A stretch of DNA of 44,921 nucleotides, taken from Acidobacteria bacterium AH-259-G07. GTDB lineage: Bacteria > Acidobacteriota > UBA6911 > RPQK01 > JADFOI01. The notes beneath the pieces are model-generated. The model saw only the letters and a program-made list of their open reading frames with translations. It had not been told where the DNA came from and did not search any database. The DNA is taken from positions 1 through 44,921 of the forward strand of contig JALLON010000001.1 in assembly GCA_027717925.1 (NCBI GenBank). The letters run 5' to 3'. Position 1 is the stretch's first letter. Every line of letters begins with the position of its first letter. Shown piece by piece: positions 22,360-41,970 of this stretch. The translations under genes and the position numbers were made by a program.

Positions 22360-22500
22360 ACCGAACTCCAACGAATGGTGTTCCGCCAGCCAGTTGCCTT
22401 TCTGGTGTCGTGAAACCTTTTTGGCTAAGGAGCAAAATGCCTTCAAAATGGCGATCGCACAGACCTGCCATGAATGCCCATCTGAGTTTCGAAGCTTTAA

Positions 22501-23775
22501 GTGGATGAGCTAATGCATGCCCGTTGGTGGATGCTGAGTTTGCTCTTTCTCGTGGCTATGATCAACTACGTCGATCGGCAGAGTCTATCCGTGGCGGTGC
22601 CAGCTATCAGAGAACAGTTCAACCTGAGCGCCACAGAGTACGGGCAGATTGTTTTTGCCTTTATGCTTGCCTATGCGATCATGCATCCGATCGCAGGGCG
22701 ATTCATAGATTCAGTGGGAACTCGTAAAGGATTTACACTCGCCGTTGTTTGGTGGTCTGCTGCGAGTATGATGCATGCGTCGGCAAGGGGATTTTGGTCC
22801 TTGGGGGCTTATCGCTTCCTTCTAGGAGTAGGGGAAGCGGGCCTCTTGCCCGGGTCTGTAAAGGCCATTTCGGAGTGGTTTCCTAAATCTGAAAGATCCT
22901 TAGCCGTAGGGGTGACCAATGTCGGCATTACTCTGGGGGCGGTCGTGGCTCCACCGCTCATGACCTGGTTGATCTTAACTTATGACTGGCGTTTCGCTTT
23001 TCTCATCACCGGTCTACTGGGATTTGTTTGGGTGGTATTTTGGCTAATTTTTTACCAAGAACCGGAAACAGGAATGGTTTCCAGCGTGGGGCCAGAAGAT
23101 CTCGTCGAAGTGCACCAGGAGCCCAATTCCGGAGAGGAAGCCAATTCTGACTTTTCGTGGCTGCAGCTTCTAAAGTATCGCCAAGTTTGGGGCCTAATGC
23201 TGGCCAGACTTCTGGCAGACCCTGTCTGGTACTTTTACCTCTTTTGGCTTCCCGAGTACCTCAATCGGGAAAGAGGCTTCAGTTTGAGTGAAATTGGTCA
23301 TTTTGCATGGATCCCATTCGTGGCAGGCATGGTGGGAAACCTGGTGGGAGGATGGATCCCTGGTCAGCTCATAAAGAGAGGATGGTCTTTGACTTGGGCG
23401 AGGAAGGGTGTCACCGTGGCAAGTGCTTTTCTAATGCCCTGCGCGATCTTAGCAGCATTCGTACGAGAAGCCGGCTTAGCAATAGCTCTCATTAGCCTAG
23501 CCGTTTTCCTGATTTGGATCTGGGCTACCAACCTGTTCACATTGCCGGCCGACTTGTTCCCTTCGAAGGTGGTGGGTTCGGTTTACGGATTGTCCGGTGC
23601 GGCTGGAAGCTTTGGGGCCGTCCTTTTCATGCCTGTCGTGGGGGTTATCGTGGATAATTTTTCCTATACCCCGGTCTTCGTCACGGTCGGTTTGTTGCAT
23701 CCGGCAGCCGCTTGCATCATTCTTTTAACCATACCGAGGGTGGAGTTGATAAGTGGGAAACAAAAAACTGCTTGA
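22501..23775 (+). CDS. MFS transporter, anion:cation symporter (ExuT / hexuronate-glucarate-like) subfamily
   Basis: 12-TM profile. The N-terminal block INYVDRQSLSVAVPAIREQFNLSATEYGQIVFAFMLAYAIMHPIAGRFIDSVGTRKGF is characteristic of ExuT-type carriers. Start is GTG at 22501 or ATG at 22513. Confidence 0.75.
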   Translation: MDELMHARWWMLSLLFLVAMINYVDRQSLSVAVPAIREQFNLSATEYGQIVFAFMLAYAIMHPIAGRFIDSVGTRKGFTLAVVWWSAASMMHASARGFWSLGAYRFLLGVGEAGLLPGSVKAISEWFPKSERSLAVGVTNVGITLGAVVAPPLMTWLILTYDWRFAFLITGLLGFVWVVFWLIFYQEPETGMVSSVGPEDLVEVHQEPNSGEEANSDFSWLQLLKYRQVWGLMLARLLADPVWYFYLFWLPEYLNRERGFSLSEIGHFAWIPFVAGMVGNLVGGWIPGQLIKRGWSLTWARKGVTVASAFLMPCAILAAFVREAGLAIALISLAVFLIWIWATNLFTLPADLFPSKVVGSVYGLSGAAGSFGAVLFMPVVGVIVDNFSYTPVFVTVGLLHPAAACIILLTIPRVELISGKQKTA

Positions 23776-23884
23776 ACAAGGATCGCCTCTTTTTGATTTT
23801 CCGTTGATCCTTGGTCACACGGTTAAACCGTGCACAAGCACTCGTTTTGCTAACTTTTGAAGTTTAAAGGGAGGTTTTACAATC

Positions 23885-24733
23885 ATGTTCAAGAAAGGAA
23901 TTTTACCCGGCCTACTCGGGATTGGACTGCTTATGGTGGCGTCCCTTCAGGGTCAGAGTGACGAGCAGATGGAAGTCGTAAGAAAAATTCGAGAAAACAG
24001 GGAACCCACCTTCGGAACGTGGGTCTATCTGAAGGATCCAGCTATAACCGAAATGTTGGCTGACGCGGGTTTGGATTGGATGATCATCGACATGGAACAT
24101 GGGAACTTGAATGAAGACCTGGTTCAGAGTCTCGTGGTTCCCCTGAAGGGCACAAAGTGCGTGCCCTTGGTCCGTATCCCTGAACTCGATAGGGGAATAA
24201 TCAACAAGCTCCTCGATACGGGTGTTCAGGGTATCCTCGTTCCGTTCGTCTACTCAAAGGAGGATGCCCAAAAGGCGGTTCGGTACGCCAAATATCCCCC
24301 GCAAGGAGATAGAGGAATAGGGTACGCGCGTGCACAGGGATGGGGACAAAAGGTGCAGTCCTACTTAGGAAAAGCGAATGACGCTGTGCTGATTGGTCTC
24401 ATCATTGAAACAAAGGAAGCACTGGACCAAATTGATGAGATCCTCGAGGTTCCGGGCATCGATTTCATTTTGCCCGGGACATATGATCTTTCTGGTGCCT
24501 TAGGCGTGATCGGGCAATTTGACCATCCTCTAGTGTTAAAGGCCAAGGAAAAAATTGAGAAGGCTTGTAAGAGAAAGAACATCGCGCTTGCCTCTTGGGC
24601 AATGGGCAAGGAGGGGATCGAAAAGGCGATTAAAGAGGGTTCGAACTTCGTTGCGCTCGCCGGGGATGTCGATTGGATCGGACAGGGGGTCGGGAACTTG
24701 CTAAAAGCGGCACAAGAGGTAACGAGCCACTAG
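23885..24733 (+). CDS. HpcH/HpaI-family 2-keto-3-deoxy-acid aldolase with an N-terminal signal peptide
   Basis: Family blocks: GTWVYLKDPAITEMLADAGLDWMIIDMEHG, PLVRIP, YPPQGDRGIGY, IIETKEAL, GIDFILPGTYDLS. The N-terminus MFKKGILPGLLGIGLLMVASLQGQ looks like a Sec signal. The ATG at 23885 has a strong RBS (AGGGAGG, 9 nt upstream). Confidence 0.75.
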   Translation: MFKKGILPGLLGIGLLMVASLQGQSDEQMEVVRKIRENREPTFGTWVYLKDPAITEMLADAGLDWMIIDMEHGNLNEDLVQSLVVPLKGTKCVPLVRIPELDRGIINKLLDTGVQGILVPFVYSKEDAQKAVRYAKYPPQGDRGIGYARAQGWGQKVQSYLGKANDAVLIGLIIETKEALDQIDEILEVPGIDFILPGTYDLSGALGVIGQFDHPLVLKAKEKIEKACKRKNIALASWAMGKEGIEKAIKEGSNFVALAGDVDWIGQGVGNLLKAAQEVTSH

Positions 24734-24894
24734 CGCGTAGGGACTGATTTTCGGTCTGGGGTAAGGAAGATGTGGGACGCGCTCGAACTTGAACCTGCTT
24801 CGGGATGCATAAAAAAGTAAAACGCCACGGCTTGATAGAAAGCAGCAGGTTGTTGCTTCGCCAATCAACCAATGTAAGGGAGCAAGCAGGAAAG

Positions 24895-25701
24895 ATGAGA
24901 GAGTATGATGTCAGTTTCGAATCAACACATATTCACTTCCTAGAGGAGGGCTCGGGCTTTCCGGTGCTTTTGCTGCATGGTTCTGGCCCGGGCGTCTCCA
25001 CCATGGGAAATTTCCGCAAGGTGCTCGACGGGTTGGCCAATCGATACCATGTGGTGGCGATGGACTGGATCGGATTTGGCAGCTCGGGACAGCTTTCATC
25101 GCCTCCCTACTTCGACATGGCGCTGTGGGAGCGCCAAATACAATTTGCCTTGGACCGCGTGACGGGCGAGAAAGTGGGTATCCTGGCGCACTCTCTCGCA
25201 TCTGTGTTTGCCCTGAAGGCAGCTGCGTCGAACACGAGGGTGTCGAAAATCCTAATGACAGGAGCCATGGGGACTCCGTTTCAAGCGAACGAACACCTGA
25301 CGAGAATTTGGACCTTTCCCGCAACACAGGAGGAATTGCGAAAGGCATTGGAGTGTCTGGTGTATGACCAGAGCGTGATCACTGACGATTTCATTCAAAA
25401 TCGCTTTGAGAACCTTCACCGGGGTAACTATGAAGAGTATTTTTCCTCCATGTTTTCCGGTGACAAACAGCCTTATGTCGATGCCTCCATATTGTCCGCT
25501 GAGCTGCTGCAAGAAATCCAGTGCAAAGTCCTGATACTGCACGGCCGTGATGATTTGCCCATTCCTTTTGAAGAGACCGCGTTGGTACTGGCTAAGAACA
25601 TTCCTCGTGCAGACCTTTGGATCATAGCGCAATGTGGGCATTCCCCTGCCTTGGAGCATCCGAATAAGCTGCTAGCCGCAGCCAAGAGTTTGTTTGGGTG
25701 A
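24895..25701 (+). CDS. Alpha/beta-fold hydrolase, meta-cleavage-product (C-C bond) hydrolase-like
   Basis: The real start is probably the ATG at 24895 (MREYDVSF...), preceded by AAGGGAG, not 24805. Blocks FPVLLLHGSGPGVS, YHVVAMDWIGFGSS, LILHGRDDLPIP and QCGHSPALEHP are colinear with BphD/MhpC-type hydrolases. The nucleophile elbow reads AHSLA rather than GNSMG. Confidence 0.7.
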   Translation: MREYDVSFESTHIHFLEEGSGFPVLLLHGSGPGVSTMGNFRKVLDGLANRYHVVAMDWIGFGSSGQLSSPPYFDMALWERQIQFALDRVTGEKVGILAHSLASVFALKAAASNTRVSKILMTGAMGTPFQANEHLTRIWTFPATQEELRKALECLVYDQSVITDDFIQNRFENLHRGNYEEYFSSMFSGDKQPYVDASILSAELLQEIQCKVLILHGRDDLPIPFEETALVLAKNIPRADLWIIAQCGHSPALEHPNKLLAAAKSLFG

Positions 25702-27689: not shown

Positions 27690-29459
27690 TTACAGTCCTC
27701 GGTTCACGGTCTCAACCGGCTCATTGGATTCTTCCGCCTCTGGCGCCTCCTTCTTATTCTGAGGGACTATTGTCTCGCCTTCTGTAACAAGAATAAACTG
27801 ATTGGAATCGATGGGCCCCATTTGATCAACGATCCCACTGGGCCAGTGAACCTGCAACTTGGTGACTTTCTGTTGCGCTCCGAGGCCAAAATGAACTCTT
27901 AGATGGTTGGAAGAAAGGTAGCTTCCTCCTCCTACTATCTGCGTTTTCTGAATCCCTGTGCCGGTTTGAAGAGTCAAGACAGCACCAATCCCATTCCTGT
28001 TGCTTTTTACCCCCCGTAGTCGGATACTCAACCAATTCTGTCGGTTTCCCCCATTATTGCGGAGAAGCATCGGCTTCTCTCCAGCATTAGCGACCAGAAT
28101 GTCCACATCCCCATCGTTATCATAATCAGCAAAGGCCGCTCCGCGGCTGACTTGCTTCTTTAACAGGGCTTCTCCATGTCCTAAAGACACTTCCTCAAAG
28201 CGGGGGCCAATGTTTTCGAAAAGAAGTTTAGGCTGCTGAAAAGAGCGCCCTGGTGTGATCAAGTGAACCCGATCATCGATGTGACCGTTGGCTGCAAAGA
28301 GGTCGAGATCGGCGTCGTTGTCGAAGTCAAAAAATCCCACTCCGAATCCCACGTACTGGCTGCTGGCACGTTTTACATTGATCCGGGAGCTGACGTCTTC
28401 AAAAAAGAAGTTGCCCAGGTTGCGATAAACAGCCAGGTACTCTGGGCTATCCAAATTGGTAACGGCCAGATCAAAAAGACCGTCTCCGTCATAGTCGGCG
28501 CAGCCGATACCCATCCCGGATTGTGCCTCGCCGTTCTCGCCCAAAGCAACACCGGCTAGCAGACCGATTTCTTGAAAAGTTTCGTCCCCGTTATTCCGAA
28601 AAAGATAGTTTGGATCAGTATCGTTTGCGATATAAATATCTGGCCACCCGTCCTGATTTAAATCGGCTCCCACCACGCCGAGACCTTTGGCAGCAAAAGA
28701 GGAGATACCTGTGTCAGAGCTGACATCAGTAAAAGTTCCATCTTTATTGTTGCGGAACAGCAGATCAGGGATGCCCTCATAGATTTTAGGGGAACAATAG
28801 ATCCGGAATCCTCTTTCCACGGGCCCGCACACTCTATTATCGTCGAAGTCAAAGTCGGCGTAACGGCAGACGTAGAGATCGAGAAAAGCGTCCCTGTTGT
28901 AGTCGAAGAAAGCCGCGCTGGTACTCCATCGGCCACCTCCCCCTAGACCTGCTTTTCTTGTTACATCAGTAAAGGTGCCATCTCCGTTGTTTCGATACAG
29001 CTGGTTTGGTCCTCGGAAATAAGTGAGGTAAAGATCGTCGTACCCATCATTGTTGTAATCTCCAACTGTGACTCCCATGCCGTAGTAGAGGTTTTCCTGA
29101 ATTCCCGCCTGGCGGCTCACGTCTTGAAACTTACCATTCCCGCGGTTTCGGTAAAGCGCGTGGTTGATCTCCCCATCGTAGTGGAACCCTGGAACTTTGC
29201 CACCATTGACCAGAAAGATGTCTAGCCAACCATCTCCGTTGTAATCGAAAAACGCACATCCGGAACCCATGATTTCTACCAAATATTTTTCAGGAGTCGC
29301 TGCTCTGATATGAATAAAATCAATGGCGGAAGCCTGGGTCACATCTAGAAACTGAACCCCGGCCTGGTTCCTTGCAATTGATCTGCCCAGTTCCGCAAGG
29401 ACAAAAAAAAAGATGAATGAGGAACTGAGAAAAAATAGTGCCCGTTTAAAGATTCGCAC
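27690..29459 (-). CDS. CRTAC1-family protein (FG-GAP/VCBS repeats + C-terminal ASPIC/UnbV domain), secreted
   Basis: Multiple FxDYNxDGxxDLxV-type repeats (FFDYNGDGWLDIFLVN, VGDYNNDGYDDLYLT, FFDYNRDAFLDLYV, ADLNQDGWPDIYIAN, CADYDGDGLFDLAVTN, FFDFDNDADLDLFAAN, FADYDNDGDVDILVAN). ASPIC/UnbV block NRNGIGAVLTLQTGTGIQKTQIVGGGSYLSSNHLRVHFGLG. Confidence 0.8.
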   Translation of the reverse strand: MRIFKRALFFLSSSFIFFFVLAELGRSIARNQAGVQFLDVTQASAIDFIHIRAATPEKYLVEIMGSGCAFFDYNGDGWLDIFLVNGGKVPGFHYDGEINHALYRNRGNGKFQDVSRQAGIQENLYYGMGVTVGDYNNDGYDDLYLTYFRGPNQLYRNNGDGTFTDVTRKAGLGGGGRWSTSAAFFDYNRDAFLDLYVCRYADFDFDDNRVCGPVERGFRIYCSPKIYEGIPDLLFRNNKDGTFTDVSSDTGISSFAAKGLGVVGADLNQDGWPDIYIANDTDPNYLFRNNGDETFQEIGLLAGVALGENGEAQSGMGIGCADYDGDGLFDLAVTNLDSPEYLAVYRNLGNFFFEDVSSRINVKRASSQYVGFGVGFFDFDNDADLDLFAANGHIDDRVHLITPGRSFQQPKLLFENIGPRFEEVSLGHGEALLKKQVSRGAAFADYDNDGDVDILVANAGEKPMLLRNNGGNRQNWLSIRLRGVKSNRNGIGAVLTLQTGTGIQKTQIVGGGSYLSSNHLRVHFGLGAQQKVTKLQVHWPSGIVDQMGPIDSNQFILVTEGETIVPQNKKEAPEAEESNEPVETVNRGL

Positions 29460-29461
29460 AG

Positions 29462-30832
29462 TTAGTCAGACCTTTTTGTGAGAAGCTTCAGGTAGAGCTC
29501 CTTCTCCTTTTTGCTTTCTTCTAAGCTTCCCAATTTGGCTAAGGCGGAGGAGAGGTTTAGATGGTACAGGGGATTGTCAGGATCCAAATCGACAGCTTTT
29601 CGGTAAGCAGACGCTGCTTCCCGGTGTTCTTCCTTTGTGAACAAAAGATTGCCAAGAAGATTGTGGTAATCGGGCAGGACGGGATTTAAGTTGATGGCTT
29701 TTTTCACAGCTTCAACAGCGGCAGGAATGTTTTTGAGCTCGTGCAAACAAACCGCCCTGGTGTAGTGATACATTGAATCATAGGGCTGCAGTTCTAAGGC
29801 TTTTTCGATGTTGCGTAAGGCTTCGAGGGGACTTCCGCGATTGAGATAGACTTGAGCTAGTCCGAAACAAGCTTCATGACTATCCGGCGCGACTTCCAGG
29901 GCTTTTTGAAATGCCTTTAAAGCCTGGTCCAGATTATCTCGCCATAAATGTTCTTCCCCTTCGAGATACAATGATCGGCCCTTTAGCCGACTTTTCTCTT
30001 GAATTTGGCTTTCTGAATCAAGTGCCTGAAACCGGGACAGAATCTGTTGAGTCTTCTCAACGTCGCCTTGCTTTCGATAGGCTGCACTAAGAAGAAAATA
30101 AGCCTCAGCCAAATTAGGGTCCAATTCAATTGCCTTTTGAAAATGATCTATTGCCTGCTGAGTTCTATCTAGATTCAGAAGAGTTTTCCCAAGTTCTTGG
30201 TGGACAAACGGCAGATTAGACCGTAACTCCAGGACCTTTTCGAAATGGTCAACCGCTTTCTGATAGCTCTGCTGACTCTGGCTATACAATTCAGCCAAAT
30301 TGAGGTGGGCCTCTATAAGGTCCGGCTTCAGTTCTAACACCTCCAAGAGACGCTGCTCTCCCTCATCATAGCGTTGTCGGCCGAGCAAGTTTCTTCCCAT
30401 CAGGTGCAGGGCGTGTACTCGCACAGGATCATCCTTTGAAACCTTCTCTTTCAGTTTCTCCAGCACAACTCGAATTTGCTCCTCCGCTTCCTGAAGGTTC
30501 CCTTGTGCTTGCAGGAGATAAGCCAGATTGAGGCGGACTTTGAGGAGCTCAGGATGAACGCCTAGGACTTGGCGGTTGACATCATATGCTTCTTGATACC
30601 GACCCAATTTGTAGAGGAGTCTTGCAAGTGCTATGGCTGCTTGCTCATGGGTAGGCTCTAGTTCCAGCGCCTGCCGATATTCAACCACTGCCTCCAAAAA
30701 CTTGTCCTGGCTCTCATAGCTTCGCGCCGATCGCAGCCGTTCCTCGAGGCCTTTGTGTTCTTCGCGAGGGGTTTGGCCATAAGTCCAGCTAAGCACTGCA
30801 GTGAGTAGGAAGGAAACAAGAACGTTTTTCAT
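29462..30832 (-). CDS. Secreted tetratricopeptide-repeat (TPR) protein, translationally coupled to the CRTAC1 gene
   Basis: Many 34-aa repeats of the A..Y..AL.L.P....A...L type along the whole length. Signal peptide MKNVLVSFLLTAVLSWTYGQ if the ATG at 30832 is used (the ORF-track GTG is at 30850). Its stop lies 2 nt from the start of the downstream CRTAC1 gene. Confidence 0.75.
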   Translation of the reverse strand: MKNVLVSFLLTAVLSWTYGQTPREEHKGLEERLRSARSYESQDKFLEAVVEYRQALELEPTHEQAAIALARLLYKLGRYQEAYDVNRQVLGVHPELLKVRLNLAYLLQAQGNLQEAEEQIRVVLEKLKEKVSKDDPVRVHALHLMGRNLLGRQRYDEGEQRLLEVLELKPDLIEAHLNLAELYSQSQQSYQKAVDHFEKVLELRSNLPFVHQELGKTLLNLDRTQQAIDHFQKAIELDPNLAEAYFLLSAAYRKQGDVEKTQQILSRFQALDSESQIQEKSRLKGRSLYLEGEEHLWRDNLDQALKAFQKALEVAPDSHEACFGLAQVYLNRGSPLEALRNIEKALELQPYDSMYHYTRAVCLHELKNIPAAVEAVKKAINLNPVLPDYHNLLGNLLFTKEEHREAASAYRKAVDLDPDNPLYHLNLSSALAKLGSLEESKKEKELYLKLLTKRSD

Positions 30833-30951
30833 CGCCGCTGATACAAACACTATTTGAACTATTTCCCCACCAATTCACGGCTGACAACCACTGCTCGGCA
30901 ACCCCCTTTCCTATTTTCGTGGGCTCAAGGTTTTAATCCTGCTATGAGAGC

Positions 30952-31887
30952 TCAATATTTTTTCACACGCCTGAGTGCCGCAGCCGCATCGGCTCTTAGT
31001 TCTCCACTATCCAAGATGAAAATCTTATAGCCCTCCTCGATGCGCTGTTCAATCGTTTCCGCATTGGCGGGAACACCACACGGAATTCCTTTTTTCTTAC
31101 AGGTAGCCAAGATCTTCCTCATGGCCTGCTGGACTTCAGGGGCGGATGGATCTGCAGGAAAACCCATGGAAGTCGCCAGGTCTAAAGGACCAATAAAGAC
31201 GCTTGAGACACCGGGAACGTCGAGGATGGCTTCTAGGTTCTTCACCCCTTCCGCCTCTTCGATCTGCAAAAATAAAATGATTTCTCCGCCTGGATCTAAA
31301 GGCCAAATGTCGGCCCGTTTTACATACTCTTTTAAGGACAAACCCCAATAGCGCAATGCGATCAGGGGCGATACACCTCTCAAACCTGGAGGGTCAAAAT
31401 CAGGTGCCCCTCTTTCCTGAGGATATCTGGCTGCCCGCACGGCAGCCAGCGCATCTTCAGGAGTGTTAATGTGGGGAAACATCACACCGTATGCCCCCAG
31501 GTCCAGCGCCTGCTTGACAAGGAACTGCAACTGTTCCCGACCATTACTGGGTATGGCCAGAGTGGGGACCACATTGGGGCGCAAAGAGCTGTTTTCTAAG
31601 GGCTCTTGACGCGAAAGCATTCCCTGCAGAAACTGCTGCAGCCGCTCAAAGTCGAGGGCACCGTGTTCCATGTCAATAGTTATAAAGTCAAGCGGCGAAT
31701 CAGCCAGAACGGCCGCGTTAGTTAGCGAGAGATCCTGGGGCGAAATGCCAAAGATGGGCTTGCCCTGCTGCAGGGTTTCAATGATCCGGTTAATTCGCTC
31801 GCGAGACTGAGCCAAAGTGGGGGGAAGAGCGAAGGCAAATAGGAAGACGAAAAACGCAAATGGAGAGAGCTTTTCAAAAGGTTTCAT
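30952..31887 (-). CDS. HpcH/HpaI-family aldolase paralogue with a clear signal peptide
   Basis: The ATG at 31887 gives MKPFEKLSPFAFFVFLFAFALPPTLAQS. Family blocks: LDFITIDMEHGALD, ARYPQERGAP..PGLRGVS, FLQIEEAEGVKNLEAILDVPGVSSVFIGPLDLATSMG. There is no Met between the signal peptide and the conserved core, so the signal cannot be removed by choosing a later start. Confidence 0.7.
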   Translation of the reverse strand: MKPFEKLSPFAFFVFLFAFALPPTLAQSRERINRIIETLQQGKPIFGISPQDLSLTNAAVLADSPLDFITIDMEHGALDFERLQQFLQGMLSRQEPLENSSLRPNVVPTLAIPSNGREQLQFLVKQALDLGAYGVMFPHINTPEDALAAVRAARYPQERGAPDFDPPGLRGVSPLIALRYWGLSLKEYVKRADIWPLDPGGEIILFLQIEEAEGVKNLEAILDVPGVSSVFIGPLDLATSMGFPADPSAPEVQQAMRKILATCKKKGIPCGVPANAETIEQRIEEGYKIFILDSGELRADAAAALRRVKKY

Positions 31888-32257
31888 GAAGATTCCCCAA
31901 GACTTGAGCAAGAGAGACGAAAAGAAGTCTTTGCTCAAGCTCTTGCCTCATTCGTCAGCCATTTGGGCAGCGTTAGAAGCTACCTCTCAACCCGTACAAA
32001 TCTATAGTGCCACCAATCCTAAGTCAAAGGAAAGAGTTTAGTTTCGCTGTCCAAATTATTGAATCATATTATCGAATTATCCAAATTATTGTATATTAGA
32101 AGACCGCTTGTGCCCTTTCGAGCTCGATCTGTAACCTTCTAAGTATTTGAGAATACGTATCTTGATCTTTGTACTCGATCTTAACTGAAGACTTCGGTAT
32201 ATAAATTGCATTCATTGTTAAAAGGGGAATTTAAGCTTGACGCGATTTTTACGCTTG

Positions 32258-32321
32258 TTGACAATTTAGCAAAATTTGACAATATGCATTGACAATATTC
32301 AGAAAATCTTGACAATATGCA
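32258..32321 (+). repeat. Array of four direct TTGACAAT boxes (starts at 32258, 32276, 32289 and 32309). Three have the extended form TTGACAATAT(G/T)CA. A degenerate TTGACG lies at 32237.
   Basis: Read directly from the sequence. Start-to-start spacings are 18, 13 and 20 bp. Located in the AT-rich divergent region between the aldolase (-) and the TonB-dependent receptor (+). Confidence 0.85.
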
Positions 32322-32338
32322 GAGAAGGTCGATATATG
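32309..32338 (+). promoter_or_regulatory. Candidate sigma70-type promoter for the TonB-dependent receptor gene (TTGACA - 17/18 nt - ATATAT/TATATG)
   Basis: The last TTGACA box (32309-32314) is followed at a 17-18 nt spacing by ATATAT/TATATG (32332-32338). This would give a leader of about 280 nt. Promoter rules for this lineage are uncertain. Confidence 0.3.
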
Positions 32339-32617
32339 GGCACACGAGCATCTTTCTTTAGAGACTTGTATACAAATATAGAGTAATGTCAAATCCTACC
32401 AGAGTTGATTCTTGTGCGACAGGGAGGTAGCATTTCATTTTGAAAGATTCTAGCGGGGGGATCCGAGTCTTGATAGCGTCGGCAACCTTCACAAGAGCAT
32501 GATGTTAAACTCGAGTTCTTTGATCCAAATAATCCATTGTTAGGGGCAAATATAGGGACATTTGTCAAGTTAGGAACTTTTTAACCTTTTTAACCTAAGT
32601 CTTAAGGAGGGGGAAAA

Positions 32618-35600
32618 ATGAGACGTAACGTTTCAGGTTTCGAATGGGTGGGGATTTTCTCCTGCCTAATTTTGTTAATGTCCACGGCCGCTCTGGGCCA
32701 GCTCACCGGCAGGATCCAGGGGCAAGTTACAGATGCGACGGGAGCTGTTCTTCCGGGTGTGGAAGTGACCGTTACTAATGAAGCGATCGGGTTCTCGCGT
32801 GTGGTAATTACTGCCGATGATGGCTACTACCGAGTTTCCGATCTTTTGCCGGGCACCTACACGGTAAGTGTGGAAATGCCGGGATTTAGGACGAGTATTC
32901 GAAGCAATGTAGAGGTCAGCGCGGAATCTGTCCTGGGGCTGAATGTGACTCTGGAGGTGGGTGAAATCACGGAGTCGGTTACTGTCAGTGGCGAAACAAT
33001 TCAAGTGGAGACCCAGGTGACTCGAATCTCGGAGGTGCTCCAGGAGGACGATATTCGGGAACTACCCATGCAGGGCCGGGGTGTCCTGAACATCGTGATG
33101 ATCACGCCCGGACTTGTGGGCAAGCAAATGCAGCAGGGAAATTATTGCTGTGATGTTTTTTCTAATTACGGAGCTCCGCGGATTAATTCAGGTGCTAATG
33201 AGCAAAAGGCTGTCTTTATGCTGGACGGGATTGACCTTCGCTACAGCGAAGGGAGCGGTTGGGGGATGTCTTTTTCTCCCAGCCCGGATGCCATTCAGGA
33301 AGTCCGCGTGACGACCAATCCGCATTCAGCGGAATTTGGCCGGGTCAGTGGGCCTCAAATCCAGATCGTGACCAAGGGTGGGACCAACAACTTCCATGGG
33401 ACGGCTCACTATCTGTTTAACGGTGACCAACTGAATGCCAGAGCCTTCTTTAGTGATTCCAAACCGGACATCGAGTATAACCTTTTTGGAGGAACGGTGG
33501 GAGGGCCCATTCTGAAGGACAAGTTGTTCTTTTTTGGAGCTTATGAAGGACTGCAGTCCACGCGCGCGGGAAGCCAAAGAGTGGTGGTGGAAACACAGGC
33601 TTTTCGCGATTTTGTGGTGAACACGAGACCGAACACCCTTGCCGCAAACTTGCTTCAGCAGTTCCCACCTGTCAAATATGCGACACAAGAGCTGCAAGAC
33701 GTGGGAAGCCCCCTTCCGGGAGTTTTTAATTGGGACTCTACTCCAGACGGTATTCCAGATCTGGGGGTGATCACACTGGATGATCCTTTTAAGCGCGACG
33801 GAAACCAGTACAATGGGAGAATTGATTTTCACCATCCCAACGACAAGGATCGTATCTTCGGTACCTATTGGTTTTCCCACCCCGAGTGGGGGCTTTCGCG
33901 GGTCCGTACGGCGTTTATTGGGCTCACCGACACGGCAGTCACTTCAGCTCACTTCACCCATACTCGGTCTTGGACACCCACGGTATTGTCCGAGGTTCGC
34001 TACGGACTGGATATCATCGATTTCACCAGTGGCGCACCCGTCAGACGCTTTCCCCACATTCCAAGTACTGGGGCCGACGATGGCTTCGGGATCGGAGCGC
34101 ATGGCTGGTCAGAATACGACTCCTATGTTCACTATGCTGAGGGAGTGTTTTCCATCAACCGGGGCAAACACGCCTTTAAGTTCGGTACCACTTACCGGAA
34201 TTCCGATCTACATGCTGAATGGCCCAACGTCCCCAGCTACGGCTTTGCCAGCATCCTCGACTTTGCTGATGACGAACCCTATTCTGAAAGTCGGCGCATT
34301 GATACTGCGGGAGGGCAAGGGACGGACACCGATCTGAGAATGCTCACGGGCGATTTTTCCCTGTTCGTGCAGAACACCTGGCAGATTCGTCCCAATCTGA
34401 CTCTCAACTACGGCTTAAGGTGGGAGTACTTCTTCCCGGTCTGGCTGGACGACAGGGACAATTGGCAGCCCCATCTGAGCTCGGATCAGATCAACCCGGC
34501 AGGCGTAACTGCTGGGACAAATACACAAGCAGCCAACCGTTTGTACAGCAGGGACCTGGACAATTTTTCTCCGCGGTTCGGCTTGGCCTGGGATCCCTCC
34601 GGTGAGGGAAAAATGTCGATCCGGTTCGGCTTGGGGCTACTCAACGAAGAGATCAACACCTTCAATCTCTACGGAGTGAACTCGAATCCGCCGAGTGCTG
34701 CCTACCTCTCGGCAGGATTTTTCGAGGAAATTAAAGACATTGTTTACGGTCTGGCACCGGAGGGGACGGTCGACTTCCCCCTCAACCCGGCCTTCAGTCG
34801 GCCGACGCTATCGCCTGCCGGTGGGATTGAGGGTGCTCGAGTGAGTGTAACCGGCTTCATGACCGATCTGCAGTCCCCGCAGGTCCTGGACACCTTGGCC
34901 GGAATTCAATACCAGCTGCGCGGAGATACGCTGGTTCAGCTCAACTACAAGTACAGACGCGGCACCAAGGAACTCTATATGGACGACATCAATCGTTTCG
35001 CGGGAGATCTTCTGGATGGCACGTTGGATCGATTGAACCCCAACTTCAACCGGGTGACCATGCTGACTAATCGAGGCCGACGCATCGGCCATAACATTGT
35101 CGCCTCTCTGACCAAACGGTATAGTCAGGGTTATTCTTTGACCGCCTCCTACAACTATACAAACGCCAGAAACAACTTCGGCGCTATACCGCGGGGTCAC
35201 AGTGACTTCTATCAGGCCGGTTCCACGGATGCGTTCAATCTGGATCCGGAGTGGGCTCGCGATGACATCCCGCACGTGTTCACCTTCCACAGCCTCTGGG
35301 AATTGCCTTTCCTGCGCGACCGTAATGACTTGGCTGGACGCCTCTTGGGAGGTTGGAAGCTGGGTACGATCGCGAACCTCCAGGCGGGAGAACTCTTTAT
35401 TGTATCGAGCAATGCTGGGTTTGGAGCTGGCGGAGATTTCAACGCGGACGGCCAGCAAACGGGTTTTCGAGGTGCCGGTGGGGACCGGCCCGACGAGCCC
35501 TCGCAGAGCTTGTCCTCCTCGTTCAGCAAGCAGGAATGGCTTCGGGGAGCGATTCCGGCAAGCGCGTTTCCAATTCCCGATCCCTCCAGCCCGCGAATCG

Positions 35601-35851
35601 GGACGCTGGCGCGAGATGCCTTTCGGGAACCCGGCTACGGCAACGTGGATCTGAACCTTATCAAAGAGTTTCGGTTTCCCGTTTGGGGTAATGAGGACGG
35701 TCGGCTGCAGGTGCGAGGCGAGTTCCTGAACCTGTTGAATCGTCTCAACATCGGTAGTGTGAGCCGTTTCATGAACTCCGCTAACTTTGCTGAAGCCACC
35801 TCAGCTCACCCCAACCGTGTGATCCAGCTGGCCTTCAAGTTCATCTTCTAG
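32618..35851 (+). CDS. TonB-dependent outer-membrane receptor with an N-terminal carboxypeptidase-regulatory-like domain (acidobacterial type)
   Basis: Signal peptide, then GRIQGQVTDATGAVLPGVEVTVTNEAIGFSRVVITADDGYYRVSDLLPGTYTVSVEMPGF (CarboxypepD_reg-like). A plug-like region follows (DDIRELPMQGRGVLNIVMITPGL). A long beta-barrel region ends in the aromatic terminus QLAFKFIF. Perfect RBS AAGGAGG at 32604-32610. Confidence 0.85.
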   Translation: MRRNVSGFEWVGIFSCLILLMSTAALGQLTGRIQGQVTDATGAVLPGVEVTVTNEAIGFSRVVITADDGYYRVSDLLPGTYTVSVEMPGFRTSIRSNVEVSAESVLGLNVTLEVGEITESVTVSGETIQVETQVTRISEVLQEDDIRELPMQGRGVLNIVMITPGLVGKQMQQGNYCCDVFSNYGAPRINSGANEQKAVFMLDGIDLRYSEGSGWGMSFSPSPDAIQEVRVTTNPHSAEFGRVSGPQIQIVTKGGTNNFHGTAHYLFNGDQLNARAFFSDSKPDIEYNLFGGTVGGPILKDKLFFFGAYEGLQSTRAGSQRVVVETQAFRDFVVNTRPNTLAANLLQQFPPVKYATQELQDVGSPLPGVFNWDSTPDGIPDLGVITLDDPFKRDGNQYNGRIDFHHPNDKDRIFGTYWFSHPEWGLSRVRTAFIGLTDTAVTSAHFTHTRSWTPTVLSEVRYGLDIIDFTSGAPVRRFPHIPSTGADDGFGIGAHGWSEYDSYVHYAEGVFSINRGKHAFKFGTTYRNSDLHAEWPNVPSYGFASILDFADDEPYSESRRIDTAGGQGTDTDLRMLTGDFSLFVQNTWQIRPNLTLNYGLRWEYFFPVWLDDRDNWQPHLSSDQINPAGVTAGTNTQAANRLYSRDLDNFSPRFGLAWDPSGEGKMSIRFGLGLLNEEINTFNLYGVNSNPPSAAYLSAGFFEEIKDIVYGLAPEGTVDFPLNPAFSRPTLSPAGGIEGARVSVTGFMTDLQSPQVLDTLAGIQYQLRGDTLVQLNYKYRRGTKELYMDDINRFAGDLLDGTLDRLNPNFNRVTMLTNRGRRIGHNIVASLTKRYSQGYSLTASYNYTNARNNFGAIPRGHSDFYQAGSTDAFNLDPEWARDDIPHVFTFHSLWELPFLRDRNDLAGRLLGGWKLGTIANLQAGELFIVSSNAGFGAGGDFNADGQQTGFRGAGGDRPDEPSQSLSSSFSKQEWLRGAIPASAFPIPDPSSPRIGTLARDAFREPGYGNVDLNLIKEFRFPVWGNEDGRLQVRGEFLNLLNRLNIGSVSRFMNSANFAEATSAHPNRVIQLAFKFIF

Positions 35852-38218: not shown

Positions 38219-38274
38219 GAGCAAAGCATGCCAAGCCGATCTTTGGATGACTTCCAAGTGAGGGAGATTTGACC

Positions 38275-40203
38275 ATGAATTACCGTATTTTTTTCCGTCC
38301 TGGCCCCAGATTCCATCTGCCTTTGCCCGCTGTTTGGTCCTTTTTGATTTCAACCGTGTATTGCTTCTCGATTCCTGTTTGCGCGTCGGTCTGTCTACCG
38401 GCCGCCCCAGGGGAAAGGGAAGTTCTGGCGGCCATGAGAAAGGCGACCGACTTCATGATGAACCGGGTGTCGAGCCGGGGCGGATTTGTGTGGCATTACT
38501 CGGAGGATTTTTCCAGACAATGGGGCGAGGTACCGGCCCGGAAATCGCAGGTCTGGGTCCAGCCTCCCGGGAGCACACCCTCTGTGGGGATGATGCTCTT
38601 GGAAGCGTACGAAGTTAGAGGGGATGCCCAGTATTTGAAATATGCCGACAAGGTTGCGGGAGCTCTGATCTGGGGCCAACTGCCATCCGGAGGGTGGCAT
38701 TATTTCATCGACTTTGATGCGGCGGGAGTTCAGAAATGGTATCGGGAGGTGGCCTCCCAGTGCCGGGGCTGGGAGGAGTTTTACCATTACAACGGCAACG
38801 CCACTTACGATGATGACACCACGGCCAGCGCCACCCGCTTGTTGCTTCGGCTTTACGCCAGGACACTGGATCCCAAGTACCGGCCCTCGCTGCTGAAGGC
38901 GCTGGATTTCATACTGGAGTCGCAGTATCCGAACGGGGCCTGGCCGCAGCGCTATCCCCTGCGCTACGATTTTCCTCACGACGGGCACGCCGACTACACA
39001 TCTTTTTACACCTTCAACGACGGCGTGATCTCCAACAACATCGAGCTTCTTTTGGAAGCTTACGAGAAACTGGGGAACGAAGAGTATCGGAAGGCGGCTT
39101 ACCGCGGGATGGACTTTTACATTCTTTCGCAGCTTCCGTCTCCACAGGCCGGTTGGGCCCAGCAGTACGACATGGACCTGAGACCGGCCTCGGCGCGCTC
39201 CTACGAGCCGGCTGCACTGAACACATATCAGACAATGCGCAATATCAAAGACCTCGAGAACTTTTACCTGATTACGCGAGATCGGCGCTATCTGGAGCCA
39301 ATCCCGAAAGCCCTGCAGTGGCTCGAAGCATCTGTCATTAACACTGACCGGTCCCGTAACTTCACCCATGCGATCTATTATGAAATCGAAACGAACAAGC
39401 CTCTGTATCCCCACCACGAGCATCGTCGGAATTCGGAAGGAAAGTTGCAGATCGTCCGTTTCTGGGTGGATGGTCAATACACAGATGAACGGCCTTACAG
39501 CGCGCTGCCGCAAGTGGATCTTCAGGCGCTTCGGAGAGAGTTTGAACACGTTAGCGCTCTGACGCCTGAGGAAGCAGCCGCGGAGTACGGTCGAAGAAAG
39601 AAGGCTGACCCGACAGTTTCCACCACTGCCGAGGAGGTCAAGGAAATTCTCTCATCCCTGGACAGCCGCGGAGCCTGGGTCACCGATATTGAGTTCTTAG
39701 ACACTCTTGATTATGTCGATAATCCGCGCACCAGGTTTCGGGGCATTGACACCCGCACGTATGTTTCTAATATGCGGAAATTGGTCGCCTACCTTAGAGC
39801 AAGAGAGGATCAAGCCTTGAAGAGTGAGGGTCCTCAGGCCCGTTTGACCTTCATTGATCTTGCTGAAATCCCTATCAACGAACTGCTCCCAGGGGTGCGA
39901 ACGCGCACCCCGTACGGTGAAAACCTGATGTTCTCCTACGTAGAAATGGACGCGGGAACCGAGGTTCCTACCCATAGTCATCCTCACGAGCAGGGCGGTA
40001 TCTTGCTGGAAGGTCGTATTGAAATGACGATCGGTTTGCAAACCAGGGTGCTAGAACCCGGGGTGCTTTACCTGATTCCGCCCAACGTTCCGCACGCAGT
40101 ACTGACCGTTGGAGGGCCAGCCAAGATCCTTGACGTCTTCAGTCCAATAAGAGAGGACTATGCAAAGTTGGTGAACGAGTACATCAAGCAAGAAGACAGA
40201 TGA
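38275..40203 (+). CDS. PL10-like lyase paralogue fused to a C-terminal KdgF-like cupin domain (first of the tandem trio)
   Basis: The ATG at 38275 is preceded by GAGGGAG (8-nt spacer); the ORF-track TTG is at 38269. It carries the same PL10-type motifs as 2757..4304 (NATYDDDTTASATRLLLRLY, ESQYPNGAWPQRYPL, YTFNDGVISNN, GWAQQYDMDLRPASARSYEP). It has very high amino-acid identity to the third copy across the catalytic region, read by eye. It extends ~120 aa beyond the point where the other copies stop. Confidence 0.65.
   Translation: MNYRIFFRPGPRFHLPLPAVWSFLISTVYCFSIPVCASVCLPAAPGEREVLAAMRKATDFMMNRVSSRGGFVWHYSEDFSRQWGEVPARKSQVWVQPPGSTPSVGMMLLEAYEVRGDAQYLKYADKVAGALIWGQLPSGGWHYFIDFDAAGVQKWYREVASQCRGWEEFYHYNGNATYDDDTTASATRLLLRLYARTLDPKYRPSLLKALDFILESQYPNGAWPQRYPLRYDFPHDGHADYTSFYTFNDGVISNNIELLLEAYEKLGNEEYRKAAYRGMDFYILSQLPSPQAGWAQQYDMDLRPASARSYEPAALNTYQTMRNIKDLENFYLITRDRRYLEPIPKALQWLEASVINTDRSRNFTHAIYYEIETNKPLYPHHEHRRNSEGKLQIVRFWVDGQYTDERPYSALPQVDLQALRREFEHVSALTPEEAAAEYGRRKKADPTVSTTAEEVKEILSSLDSRGAWVTDIEFLDTLDYVDNPRTRFRGIDTRTYVSNMRKLVAYLRAREDQALKSEGPQARLTFIDLAEIPINELLPGVRTRTPYGENLMFSYVEMDAGTEVPTHSHPHEQGGILLEGRIEMTIGLQTRVLEPGVLYLIPPNVPHAVLTVGGPAKILDVFSPIREDYAKLVNEYIKQEDR
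39841..40200 (+). other. Single-barrel cupin domain (KdgF-like) forming the C-terminal extension of the 38275 gene
   Basis: RLTFIDLAEIPINELLPGVRTRTPYGENLMFSYVEMDAGTEVPTHSHPHEQGGILLEGRIEMTIGLQTRVLEPGVLYLIPPNVPHAVLTVGGPAKILDVFSPIREDYAKL. Both cupin metal motifs are present (HxHxxxQ/E and PxxxPH). The D.FSP.R.DY tail resembles small KdgF-type cupins. Confidence 0.65.
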
Positions 40204-40249
40204 CGCTTCAAATGACCTCTTCCTCTGCGCCCTCCCAAGAGGTATTCTG

Positions 40250-41905: not shown

Positions 41906-41970
41906 CGTCATCGAGGCAAGTTAAGCTTTTACTTTTGTCCATTATAAGTTGGTCCATCCCTCAGATTGGC

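What the first reader, a model, noticed from the sequence alone, without database searches (positions are those of the whole stretch)
30952..31887. Second HpcH/HpaI aldolase paralogue with an unavoidable signal peptide
The N-terminus MKPFEKLSPFAFFVFLFAFALPPTLAQS has the n-, h- and c-regions of a classic Sec signal. No Met lies between it and the first conserved block (PIFGI...LDFITIDMEHG), so it cannot be explained away by a mis-called start.

The gene is divergent from the TonB-dependent receptor gene across the AT-rich control region. It lies upstream, on the same strand, of the TPR + CRTAC1 pair.

Two independent exported copies in one island argue that aldol cleavage, or the reverse reaction, of a 2-keto-3-deoxy acid takes place outside the cytoplasm. 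I do not know this to be described.
Basis: partly seen in the sequence, partly recalled or inferred. Interest (0 to 1): 0.65.

Follow-up and report, generated by a model that had tools for sequence, protein, structure and literature searches.

The report
Exported aldolase-like protein missing catalytic arginine
This gene encodes an HpcH/HpaI aldolase-fold protein with a genuine, evolutionarily conserved export signal, from a large undescribed clade of exported relatives, but it has lost the arginine these aldolases need for catalysis, so it is probably not an ordinary aldolase.

Summary
Window 30952-31887 (minus strand) is an intact 311-codon gene with an HpcH/HpaI domain, a predicted TIM barrel and a 28-residue Sec-type N-terminus.

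The export signal is a clade trait. About 90 of the ~98 closest database homologues and nearly all of the best 80 loci from genome-database species carry a similar N-terminal extension. Canonical cytoplasmic relatives have 3-7 residues there. A cysteine pair (C263/C270) tracks the signal.

The His of the DxEH motif and the metal-binding Glu/Asp pair are kept. The catalytic arginine (E. coli HpaI Arg70) is Ala111 here. It is Ala or Ser in the five closest homologues and Arg in nearly all others.

This Arg-less group is monophyletic (97/100 bootstrap), under purifying selection, and always sits next to PL10-like lyase and TonB-dependent receptor genes.

The first paralogue (23885-24733) keeps all catalytic residues and is the better candidate for a periplasmic aldolase.

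My best reading is an exported, metal-binding enzyme with altered chemistry or substrate. It likely acts on uronate-derived products. Its function is inferred, not shown.

The parts
30952..31887 (-). Target gene: 311-codon exported HpcH/HpaI-fold protein of the Arg-less subclade
   Evidence: ORF and translation. Pfam PF03328 E 1.2e-25. AF2 model pLDDT 82.7 with eight strands. Foldseek best hits are 4mf4 and HpaI, TM about 0.8.
31804..31887 (-). Codons 1-28: Sec-type signal peptide. n-region MKPFEK, h-region LSPFAFFVFLFAFAL, c-region PPTLAQS. Likely cleavage is TLA|QS or AQS|RE.
   Evidence: Heuristic hydrophobicity 2.94, net +1 n-region, small residues at -3/-1, no Cys, no RR. AF2 gives an isolated low-confidence helix at 9-20 and a disordered stretch at 21-28. 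Conserved as a trait in homologues.
31813..31815 (-). In-frame TTG (codon 25), the only alternative start between the signal and the domain
   Evidence: the upstream 20 nt are C-rich with no SD-like motif.
31555..31557 (-). Codon 111, GCC = Ala, at the position of the catalytic Arg (E. coli HpaI Arg70) at the end of strand beta3
   Evidence: phmmer alignments to 4mf4 and HpaI. MAFFT of 121 sequences. BLASTP against paralogue 1. Codons. Strand 107-111 in the model.
31663..31674 (-). Codons 72-75, the D-M-E-H motif (HpaI Asp42/Glu44/His45 equivalents), retained
31258..31260 (-). Codon 210, Glu (metal ligand, HpaI Glu149 equivalent), retained
31180..31182 (-). Codon 236, Asp (metal ligand, HpaI Asp175 equivalent), retained
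31888..32617 (.). AT-rich divergent intergenic region between the target and the TonB-dependent receptor gene
   Evidence: GC 0.33-0.41. Promoter-like hexamers on both strands, 6 found against 1.8 expected. No Rfam match.
32618..35851 (+). TonB-dependent receptor (CarboxypepD_reg + OMP_b-brl_4). Its homologue is a neighbour in the S-type Arg-less loci and at the edge of the Arg+ sister locus; none lies on the short P0002 contig.
29462..30850 (-). Exported TPR protein immediately downstream. This adjacency is also seen in the closest homologue's locus.
27690..29459 (-). FG-GAP/ASPIC-UnbV ('CRTAC1-like') protein downstream of the TPR gene
23885..24733 (+). Paralogue 1: HpcH/HpaI protein with a signal-like N-terminus and all catalytic residues (DMEH, PLVRIP, IIET, YDL)
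21961..25701 (+). Conserved operon RidA - MFS - paralogue 1 - alpha/beta hydrolase
38269..43452 (+). Three PL10-like (Pec_lyase) genes, one fused to a cupin. A fourth lies at 2757-4304. Homologues flank every Arg-less relative.

Best explanation
The gene encodes a Sec-exported, probably periplasmic protein with the HpcH/HpaI class II aldolase TIM-barrel fold. It belongs to a large, previously undescribed clade of signal-peptide-bearing HpcH/HpaI-like proteins.

Inferred steps: signal peptidase I cleaves near Ala26/Ser28. The mature protein of about 285 residues folds in the periplasm, possibly with a C263-C270 disulfide. It binds a divalent metal through Glu210/Asp236 and a 2-oxo-acid or enol-carboxylate moiety.

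The arginine that polarises the carbonyl and stabilises the enolate (HpaI Arg70) is Ala111 here. Pocket positions on strands beta2, beta7 and beta8 changed with it. I therefore think it is not a canonical pyruvate aldolase. I think it is a derived enzyme with altered chemistry or a bulkier substrate. That substrate is most likely a uronate-derived product of the adjacent PL10-like lyases, taken up through the adjacent TonB-dependent receptor.

Shown: fold, signal-like N-terminus and its conservation, loss of Arg, retention of His/Glu/Asp, purifying selection, gene linkage. Inferred: export, cleavage site, metal binding, substrate and reaction.
For: - **Fold and family.** Pfam 90.6 bits. AF2 model of eight beta strands, pLDDT 82.7. 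Foldseek top hits are 4mf4 and HpaI, TM about 0.8.
- **Signal.** The n/h/c anatomy is present and the same heuristic separates exported from cytoplasmic island proteins. About 90 of the ~98 closest homologues have SP-like extensions, as do 79 of 96 from a second search and nearly all of the best 80 loci from genome-database species. Canonical relatives have only 3-7 residues before the domain.
- **Cysteine pair.** C263/C270 are the only cysteines in the protein. Both are present in 185 of 239 SP-like homologues against 20 of 76 SP-less ones.
- **Arg loss.** Three independent alignments agree. Ala or Ser is found only in P0001-P0006. Arg is found in 78 of the best 80 species loci (1 Ser, 1 not alignable), 96/96 and 133/143 of other relatives.
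- **Clade.** The Arg-less group is monophyletic, 97/100 bootstrap. Different codons (GCC, GCA, AGC) occur in independent assemblies.
- **Selection.** pN is 0.15-0.30 while pS is about 0.77 (saturated). dN/dS is 0.12 for P0006 against P0004.
- **Co-changes.** Positions 70, 273 and 291 changed with position 111 and lie on strands beta2, beta7 and beta8.
- **Retained binding.** HpaI R70A still crystallises with pyruvate bound (entry 4b5w).
- **Linkage.** PL10-like genes flank the gene in all four Arg-less loci and in the nearest Arg+ relative, but in none of about 78 more distant loci. A homologous TonB-dependent receptor gene is seen in the window, the two S-type loci and the sister locus.
Against: - No trained signal-peptide predictor and no experiment was available.
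- Model coordinates could not be inspected. I could not test whether another basic residue reaches the active site and rescues aldolase chemistry. Candidates are Arg117 of the clade's NGRE loop insertion, Arg170 and Arg179.
- His, Glu, Asp and Gln are all retained, which is also what a still-active aldolase would show.
- No substrate evidence exists. The link to uronates rests only on gene neighbourhood.
- The TTG at codon 25 could give a cytoplasmic isoform.
Confidence: 0.45

Rival explanations
1. This is the first reader's reading: a bona fide periplasmic class II pyruvate aldolase. Another residue or the metal takes over the missing Arg's role. Candidates are Arg117 in the lengthened beta3-alpha3 loop, or a basic residue from the neighbouring subunit.
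For: The metal-binding Glu/Asp pair, the His and the Gln are all conserved. Arg117 is present in 6/6 Arg-less sequences and sits in a loop at the catalytic face of the barrel. Purifying selection acts on the gene. The wider exported clade has the full catalytic set.
Against: Arg70 is described as important for C-C cleavage and enolate stabilisation in HpaI (PMC8560999). It is conserved in over 90% of relatives. No clade-specific gain of a basic residue was found: Arg117, Arg170 and Arg179 also occur in Arg-containing sisters. Several pocket residues changed at the same time.
Confidence: 0.25
2. It is a catalytically dead pseudo-enzyme. It could be an exported 2-oxo-acid or uronate binding protein, or a scaffold working with the downstream TPR protein. 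It could also be a non-catalytic subunit mixed with paralogue 1.
For: The key catalytic residue is lost. The HpcH-TPR adjacency is conserved, with overlapping genes in L001. A paralogue-1-like gene co-occurs in the window, in L001 and in L008.
Against: Pseudo-enzymes usually lose several catalytic residues. Here the His, Glu, Asp and Gln are invariant or nearly so in all six members. The S-type loci show no second HpcH gene or TPR gene nearby.
Confidence: 0.17
3. It is a cytoplasmic enzyme. The apparent signal comes from translation being assigned to the wrong start, with the real start at TTG codon 25, or it is an uncleaved membrane anchor.
For: An in-frame TTG lies exactly at the end of the signal.
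Against: No SD-like sequence precedes the TTG, while GGGGA precedes the ATG. Signal-like extensions with AxA/AQ-type ends are conserved in hundreds of homologues whose DNA differs. The cysteine pair tracks the signal. The neighbours are exported proteins.
Confidence: 0.05

Closest known systems
E. coli HpaI/HpcH (4-hydroxy-2-oxoheptanedioate aldolase; PDB 2v5j, 4b5s)
   Same: Same Pfam family and TIM-barrel fold (TM about 0.8, about 30% identity). The DxEH motif, the Gln-x-Glu and the GPxDL metal site are all present.
   Different: HpaI is cytoplasmic and has no signal peptide. It has Arg70 where the target has Ala111. The target has clade-specific insertions (LSRQEPLENSSLRPN before beta3, an NGRE loop, and YPQERGAPDFDPPG). 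It scores 116 bits against the 369-bit NCBIfam equivalog cut-off.
HpaI R70A variant (PDB 4b5w)
   Same: It has the same residue (Ala) at the catalytic position. It is among the best sequence and structure matches. It was crystallised with pyruvate bound, so the metal/2-oxo-acid site survives the substitution.
   Different: It is a laboratory mutant made to disable catalysis. From my own recollection of the HpaI literature, not verified here, R70A is inactive. The natural Arg-less clade carries further pocket changes and is under purifying selection.
Burkholderia cenocepacia HpcH/HpaI family protein (PDB 4mf4)
   Same: It is the best solved relative (E 2e-30, about 32% identity, TM 0.80).
   Different: It is an uncharacterised structural-genomics entry. 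It keeps the Arg (PVVRVP) and has no signal peptide in the deposited chain.
GarL (2-dehydro-3-deoxyglucarate aldolase) and RhmA/YfaU (2-keto-3-deoxy-L-rhamnonate aldolase)
   Same: They share the family and fold and act in sugar-acid catabolism, which fits a uronate-polysaccharide island.
   Different: The target scores far below their equivalog cut-offs (98 against 407 bits; 77 against 441 bits). They are cytoplasmic and Arg-containing.
Unnamed exported HpcH/HpaI-like clade (e.g. P0007-P0098; Pseudohongiella, Woeseiaceae, Gemmatimonadota and Acidobacteriota loci L014-L090)
   Same: They share the signal peptide, the insertions, the NGRE loop and the C263/C270 pair. They are 40-60% identical to the target.
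   Different: They keep the catalytic Arg. Their usual neighbours are an exported NHL beta-propeller, an OpuAC-type ABC transporter and PQQ dehydrogenases, not PL10-like lyases.

Membership tests
HpcH/HpaI class II (metal-dependent) pyruvate aldolases (PF03328) | Pfam HpcH_HpaI domain above the gathering score | tested here: met
   90.6 bits against 25.
HpcH/HpaI class II (metal-dependent) pyruvate aldolases (PF03328) | (beta/alpha)8 barrel superposable on HpaI | tested here: met
   AF2 pLDDT 82.7 with eight strands. Foldseek gives 4mf4, 4b5w and 2v5k at TM about 0.8.
HpcH/HpaI class II (metal-dependent) pyruvate aldolases (PF03328) | Metal-ligand Glu/Asp pair (HpaI Glu149/Asp175) | tested here: met
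   Glu210 and Asp236 align with them. Both are invariant in the species loci that could be aligned (79 of 80).
HpcH/HpaI class II (metal-dependent) pyruvate aldolases (PF03328) | His of the D-x-E-H motif (HpaI His45) | tested here: met
   D72-M-E-H75.
HpcH/HpaI class II (metal-dependent) pyruvate aldolases (PF03328) | Catalytic Arg at the end of beta3 (HpaI Arg70, YfaU Arg74, AbHpaI Arg72) | tested here: not met
   Ala111 in three independent alignments. The role of the Arg is described in PMC8560999.
HpcH/HpaI class II (metal-dependent) pyruvate aldolases (PF03328) | Equivalog-level match to HpaI, GarL or RhmA | tested here: not met
   116.5 against 368.8 bits, 97.7 against 406.75, and 76.5 against 441.
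HpcH/HpaI class II (metal-dependent) pyruvate aldolases (PF03328) | Hexameric assembly and measurable aldol cleavage of a 4-hydroxy-2-oxo acid | not testable with these tools
   This needs biochemistry or multimer modelling with coordinates.
Sec-type (signal peptidase I) signal peptide | Positively charged n-region, h-region of 10-15 hydrophobic residues, c-region with small residues at -3/-1 | tested here: met
   K2/K6 give net +1. The h-region scores 2.94 on a Kyte-Doolittle 10-mer. Candidate sites are TLA|QS and AQS|RE. The same score separates exported from cytoplasmic island proteins.
Sec-type (signal peptidase I) signal peptide | Not a lipoprotein signal (no lipobox Cys) and not a Tat signal (no twin Arg) | tested here: met
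   There is no Cys and no RR in residues 1-30.
Sec-type (signal peptidase I) signal peptide | Conserved as a trait in orthologues while variable in sequence | tested here: met
Sec-type (signal peptidase I) signal peptide | Call by a trained predictor (SignalP or similar) and experimental cleavage or localisation | not testable with these tools
Exported HpcH/HpaI-like clade (unnamed, defined here) | Signal peptide, RxN N-terminal motif, insertion before beta3, NGRE loop, YPQ...PxGxRG insertion and the C263/C270 pair | tested here: met

The most novel reading that the evidence does not exclude
The Arg-less exported HpcH-fold proteins may be a new kind of periplasmic enzyme that works on the products of the neighbouring PL10-like lyases.

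The 4,5-unsaturated uronate end (ring O-C5(=C4)-COO-) is an enolpyruvyl-like group. It could chelate the Glu/Asp-bound metal the way the pyruvate enolate does in aldolases. The His/water pair would then protonate C4. This would hydrate or open the unsaturated sugar, a role normally filled by GH88/GH105 hydrolases or KdgF cupins.

This chemistry needs no enolate-stabilising Arg. It would benefit from the wider, less polar pocket created by R111A/S, T273A/G/P and T291I/L.
Probability: 0.1. Interest if true: 0.8.

Novelty: new variant of a known kind. Interest (0 to 1): 0.55.

Why it matters
Class II pyruvate aldolases of the HpcH/HpaI family are treated as cytoplasmic enzymes of aromatic and sugar-acid catabolism. 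This window points to a widespread exported branch. At least 498 loci in genome-database species, and 167 clusters at 50% identity scoring E 1e-30 or better, are relatives of the target, and among the closest of them most carry signals. They occur in Acidobacteriota, Gemmatimonadota, marine Gammaproteobacteria and other phyla.

If these proteins are active in the periplasm, part of sugar-acid or other 2-oxo-acid metabolism happens before uptake. That changes how polysaccharide-utilisation loci should be read.

The target's subclade adds a natural experiment. The supposedly indispensable Arg has been lost, other pocket residues changed with it, and selection is still purifying. This marks either a new reaction on this scaffold or an unexpected way to do aldol chemistry without the Arg.

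It is also a practical warning. Automatic annotation as '4-hydroxy-2-oxoheptanedioate aldolase' is unsafe for these proteins.

Tried and rejected
- **Compensating basic residue.** I looked for one gained only in the Arg-less clade and found none. Arg103, Arg117, Arg170 and Arg179 also occur in Arg-containing sisters.
- **dN/dS.** Synonymous sites are saturated for most pairs, so only a qualitative statement of purifying selection is possible.
- **Phylogeny.** The first tree attempt timed out. A faster neighbour-joining run with Kimura distances was used instead. No maximum-likelihood tree could be built.
- **Model coordinates.** They are not exposed, so active-site geometry, the possible disulfide and the reach of Arg117 could not be checked.
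- **RNA elements.** An Rfam scan of the AT-rich intergenic region found nothing. A riboswitch or other known RNA family is not supported.
- **Literature.** Searches for exported or periplasmic HpcH/HpaI aldolases found nothing relevant. The primary HpaI R70A paper is not held.
- **Third database search.** Seeding with an S-type member found no further Arg-less relatives.
- **Pseudogene or sequencing error.** Rejected, because the ORF is intact, independent assemblies use different codons, and pN is far below pS.
- **Lipoprotein or Tat signal.** Rejected, because there is no Cys and no RR in the signal.
- **Position 295 (Asp to Gly/Ala).** The apparent change lies in an ambiguous part of the alignment, so I did not rely on it.
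Full report
**Observation**

The ORF on the minus strand runs from ATG 31885-31887 to TGA 30952-30954. It is identical to a protein annotated in 'Acidobacteria bacterium AH-259-G07', and the window is that protein's whole 44,921-base contig.

Pfam places it in HpcH_HpaI at 90.6 bits against a cut-off of 25. NCBIfam matches to HpaI, GarL and RhmA fall far below their equivalog cut-offs.

An AlphaFold2 model built on 14 homologues has mean pLDDT 82.7 and eight beta strands alternating with helices. Foldseek returns 4mf4, HpaI/HpcH, GarL and YfaU with target-normalised TM of about 0.8.

A first paralogue lies at 23885-24733 (+) and is 30% identical. The positional claims hold:
- The TonB-dependent receptor gene is divergent, across a stretch of GC 0.33-0.41 against 0.53 for the window.
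- The TPR and FG-GAP/ASPIC genes follow on the same strand.

**The signal peptide is real as a sequence feature and conserved**

Residues 1-28 have two Lys in the n-region and a 14-residue hydrophobic core, the most hydrophobic 10-mer scoring 2.94. Small residues sit at -3/-1 (TLA|QS or AQS|RE). There is no Cys and no twin Arg.

The same crude score separates the island's evident cytoplasmic proteins from its exported ones:

| Class | Proteins | Score |
|---|---|---|
| Cytoplasmic | LacI, aldehyde dehydrogenase, alpha/beta hydrolase | 1.36, 0.63, 0.97 |
| Exported | other island proteins | 2.2 or higher |

The model shows an isolated low-confidence helix at 9-20 and a disordered stretch at 21-28 before the barrel.

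The strongest evidence is comparative. SP-like extensions of 20-40 residues ending in AxA/AQ-type motifs occur as follows:
- about 90 of the ~98 closest homologues (95 of all 121 aligned sequences)
- 79 of 96 sequences from a second search
- nearly all of the best 80 loci from genome-database species representatives

Canonical cytoplasmic relatives such as P0099 and P0102-P0120 have only 3-7 residues before the domain.

The protein's only two cysteines are C263 and C270. Both are present in 185 of 239 SP-like homologues but in only 20 of 76 SP-less ones. This fits a periplasmic disulfide. It is an inference, and the counts are not phylogenetically independent.

'Unavoidable' needs one qualification. 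An in-frame TTG at codon 25 could start a signal-less form. It has no Shine-Dalgarno-like sequence, whereas GGGGA precedes the ATG.

**The catalytic arginine is missing**

In phmmer alignments to 4mf4 and E. coli HpaI, the motif PVVR(V/P)P aligns with PTLAIP. The best-scoring HpaI entry is the R70A mutant 4b5w. The same result comes from a 121-sequence MAFFT alignment and from BLASTP against paralogue 1, where VPLVRIP aligns with VPTLAIP. Position 111 ends the predicted strand beta3.

The following residues are retained:
- the D72-M-E-H75 motif
- Gln208 and the metal ligand Glu210
- the metal ligand Asp236

In HpaI-type enzymes the Arg, the His and a metal-bound water are described as important for C-C cleavage and enolate stabilisation. 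The Arg hydrogen-bonds the C4-OH or the aldehyde carbonyl (PMC8560999).

**The loss defines a small, selected clade**

Only the target and its five closest database clusters (59-76% identical among themselves) lack the Arg:

| Residue at position 111 | Members |
|---|---|
| Ala | P0001, P0002 |
| Ser | P0003, P0004, P0005, P0006 |

Other relatives keep the Arg:
- 78 of the best 80 species loci; the exceptions are L013 (= P0004, a Bryobacterales genome, Ser) and one locus that could not be aligned
- 96 of 96 sequences from a search seeded with P0006
- 133 of 143 alignable 50%-identity representatives

The ten exceptions in the last set are distant and less securely aligned.

A neighbour-joining tree makes the Arg-less group monophyletic with 97/100 bootstrap. 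It is nested inside the Arg-containing exported clade.

The codons are GCC and GCA (Ala), AGC (Ser) and CGC (Arg in the sisters), from independent assemblies. Non-synonymous differences are 0.15-0.30 per site while synonymous sites are saturated at about 0.77. dN/dS is 0.12 for the one measurable Arg-less pair. So this is not a decaying gene.

Positions that are highly conserved in the sister clade changed together with the Arg:

| Position | Change | Location |
|---|---|---|
| 70 | Ile to Thr/Gln | beta2 |
| 175 | Gly to Leu/Val/Thr | not on a predicted strand |
| 273 | Thr to Pro/Gly/Ala | beta7 |
| 291 | Thr to Ile/Leu | beta8 |

Positions 70, 273 and 291 lie on barrel strands. No basic residue was gained specifically in the clade.

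**Genomic context**

The window is a uronate-polysaccharide island rich in exported proteins. It contains:
- four PL10-like (Pec_lyase) genes
- a heparinase II/III-like gene
- two signal-bearing bicupins
- a sulfatase-TPR fusion
- a TonB-dependent receptor
- an SSF transporter and an MFS transporter
- a LacI regulator
- an aldehyde dehydrogenase
- an OpuAC-type binding protein

In all four Arg-less loci with context, the gene lies close to a PL10-like gene. These loci are the window, L001, L002-5 and L006/7. A homologous TonB-dependent receptor gene is present in the window and the two S-type loci; none lies on the short P0002 contig. In P0006 loci a periplasmic PQQ/cytochrome c dehydrogenase lies directly upstream. 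In the P0002 locus the TPR gene overlaps the stop codon.

The nearest Arg-containing relative, P0007, shares the PL10-like, OpuAC and receptor neighbours. None of about 78 more distant exported homologues has a PL10-like neighbour.

**The wider exported clade**

At least 498 loci in genome-database species representatives encode relatives. The best 80 span Acidobacteriota, Gemmatimonadota, Gammaproteobacteria (Pseudohongiella, Woeseiaceae, SAR86), Marinimicrobia, Verrucomicrobiota and Planctomycetota. In a library of 1.84 billion representatives, 167 clusters score E 1e-30 or better.

Their commonest neighbours are:
- an exported NHL beta-propeller of about 380 residues, in 30 of 76 loci and usually directly upstream
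- components of an OpuAC-type ABC transporter
- PQQ quinohaemoprotein dehydrogenases
- a cytochrome c-like protein
- an aminotransferase

I found no paper on exported HpcH/HpaI aldolases in the searchable library.

**Paralogue 1**

It keeps the His, Arg, Glu and Asp. It sits in a conserved RidA-MFS-HpcH-alpha/beta hydrolase operon. Only about half of its closest relatives have a signal. The window copy has Met29 exactly where signal-less relatives start. Its export is therefore less certain, but its catalytic competence is more likely.

**Mechanism and rivals**

I consider it most likely (0.45) that the protein is exported by Sec and binds metal and a 2-oxo-acid-like group. On this reading it performs altered chemistry, or acts on a bulkier uronate-derived substrate supplied by the PL10-like lyases and the receptor.

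The rivals are:
- A true aldolase whose Arg role is taken by another residue such as Arg117 (0.25).
- A non-catalytic binding or scaffold protein (0.17).
- A cytoplasmic protein starting at TTG25 (0.05).

The most novel reading not excluded is hydration or ring opening of the enolpyruvyl-like 4,5-unsaturated uronate end on the aldolase metal site. That would be a GH88/GH105/KdgF-like role on a new scaffold (probability about 0.1).

**Comparison and novelty**

It works like, and folds like, an HpcH/HpaI aldolase. It fails one defining catalytic feature and the equivalog thresholds. I therefore file it as an HpcH/HpaI-fold protein, not as an HpaI, GarL or RhmA aldolase.

Both the conserved export signal on this family and the selected loss of the Arg appear undescribed. 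I rate it a new variant of a known kind.

**Limits**

- No trained signal predictor was available.
- No maximum-likelihood phylogeny could be built.
- There is no experimental data.
- Function rests on residue conservation and gene neighbourhood.

Noticed in passing
window 21961-25701 (+); also L001, L093, L094: Paralogue 1 lies in a conserved four-gene operon: RidA, MFS transporter, HpcH/HpaI, alpha/beta hydrolase. The hydrolase and RidA have no signal peptide, so the operon mixes compartments if paralogue 1 is really exported.
   Followed up: partly
window 23885-23971 (codons 1-29 of paralogue 1); P0123, P0124, P0126, P0129: Signal-bearing relatives of paralogue 1 often keep a Met exactly where signal-less relatives begin (window M29 in EQMEVVRKIR; P0126 starts MQFETIKR). 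This suggests a recent N-terminal extension, or two alternative starts giving exported and cytoplasmic isoforms.
   Followed up: partly
L014-L090, e.g. L048:6769-7959, L018:6742-7872: In the wider exported HpcH/HpaI clade, the commonest neighbour is an exported NHL-repeat beta-propeller of about 380 aa. It occurs in 30 of 76 loci, mostly directly upstream on the same strand. Its best enzymatic PDB relative is peptidyl-alpha-hydroxyglycine alpha-amidating lyase (3fvz, E 1.2e-10). OpuAC-type ABC transporters, PQQ quinohaemoprotein dehydrogenases and an aminotransferase recur as well. This looks like an uncharacterised periplasmic pathway.
   Followed up: partly
window 10413-11315 (-) and 12699-13610 (-): Two bicupin proteins of about 300 aa carry signal peptides (MKARKSLYVLLAVKTVFMCSLGKAQ; MKVSIKLSVFVLVCTFCPWTLAQ). 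They resemble oxalate decarboxylase cupin domains only weakly. Exported cupins in a lyase island could be KdgF/KduI-like enzymes working outside the cytoplasm.
   Followed up: partly
window 7267-8427 (-): The AAT-family (acyl-CoA:6-APA acyltransferase-like) protein has a Tat-like N-terminus (SRRDFGRLWALGGSAVLL).
   Followed up: no
P0083-P0098 and P0104 (homologues): One exported subfamily replaces the DMEH motif by IDEQYG/IDTQYG (Glu to Gln, His to Tyr) while keeping the Arg and the metal ligands. This is a second, different remodelling of the catalytic set in the exported clade.
   Followed up: no
P0100, P0411, P0420, P0435 and others: A few distant representatives also lack the Arg (Thr, Glu, Gly, Met or Lys at that column, e.g. 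IVTLPTDG). Alignment there is less secure, but Arg loss may have happened more than once in this superclade.
   Followed up: partly
L008/L009 6862-7770 (+): In the locus of the Arg-containing sister P0007, a paralogue-1-like HpcH gene lies directly upstream of the target-like gene. It is 302 aa with an SP-like N-terminus, and its metal Glu is replaced by Asp in LIVDSKEG. The two paralogue types co-occur in three genomes.
   Followed up: partly
window 3-2747 (+); L008:4307-6718; L002:9126-11537; L006:8829-11387: Large exported proteins of unknown function (800-914 aa; weak CARDB, PPC, transglutaminase-core or Rha78A-Ig hits) accompany the PL10-like and HpcH genes in the window, the S-type loci and the sister locus. 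The versions are not all homologous to each other.
   Followed up: partly
P0291 (598 aa) and P0307 (916 aa): Some representatives contain two or three HpcH/HpaI-like stretches in one polypeptide. These are tandem duplications or fusions of the exported type.
   Followed up: no
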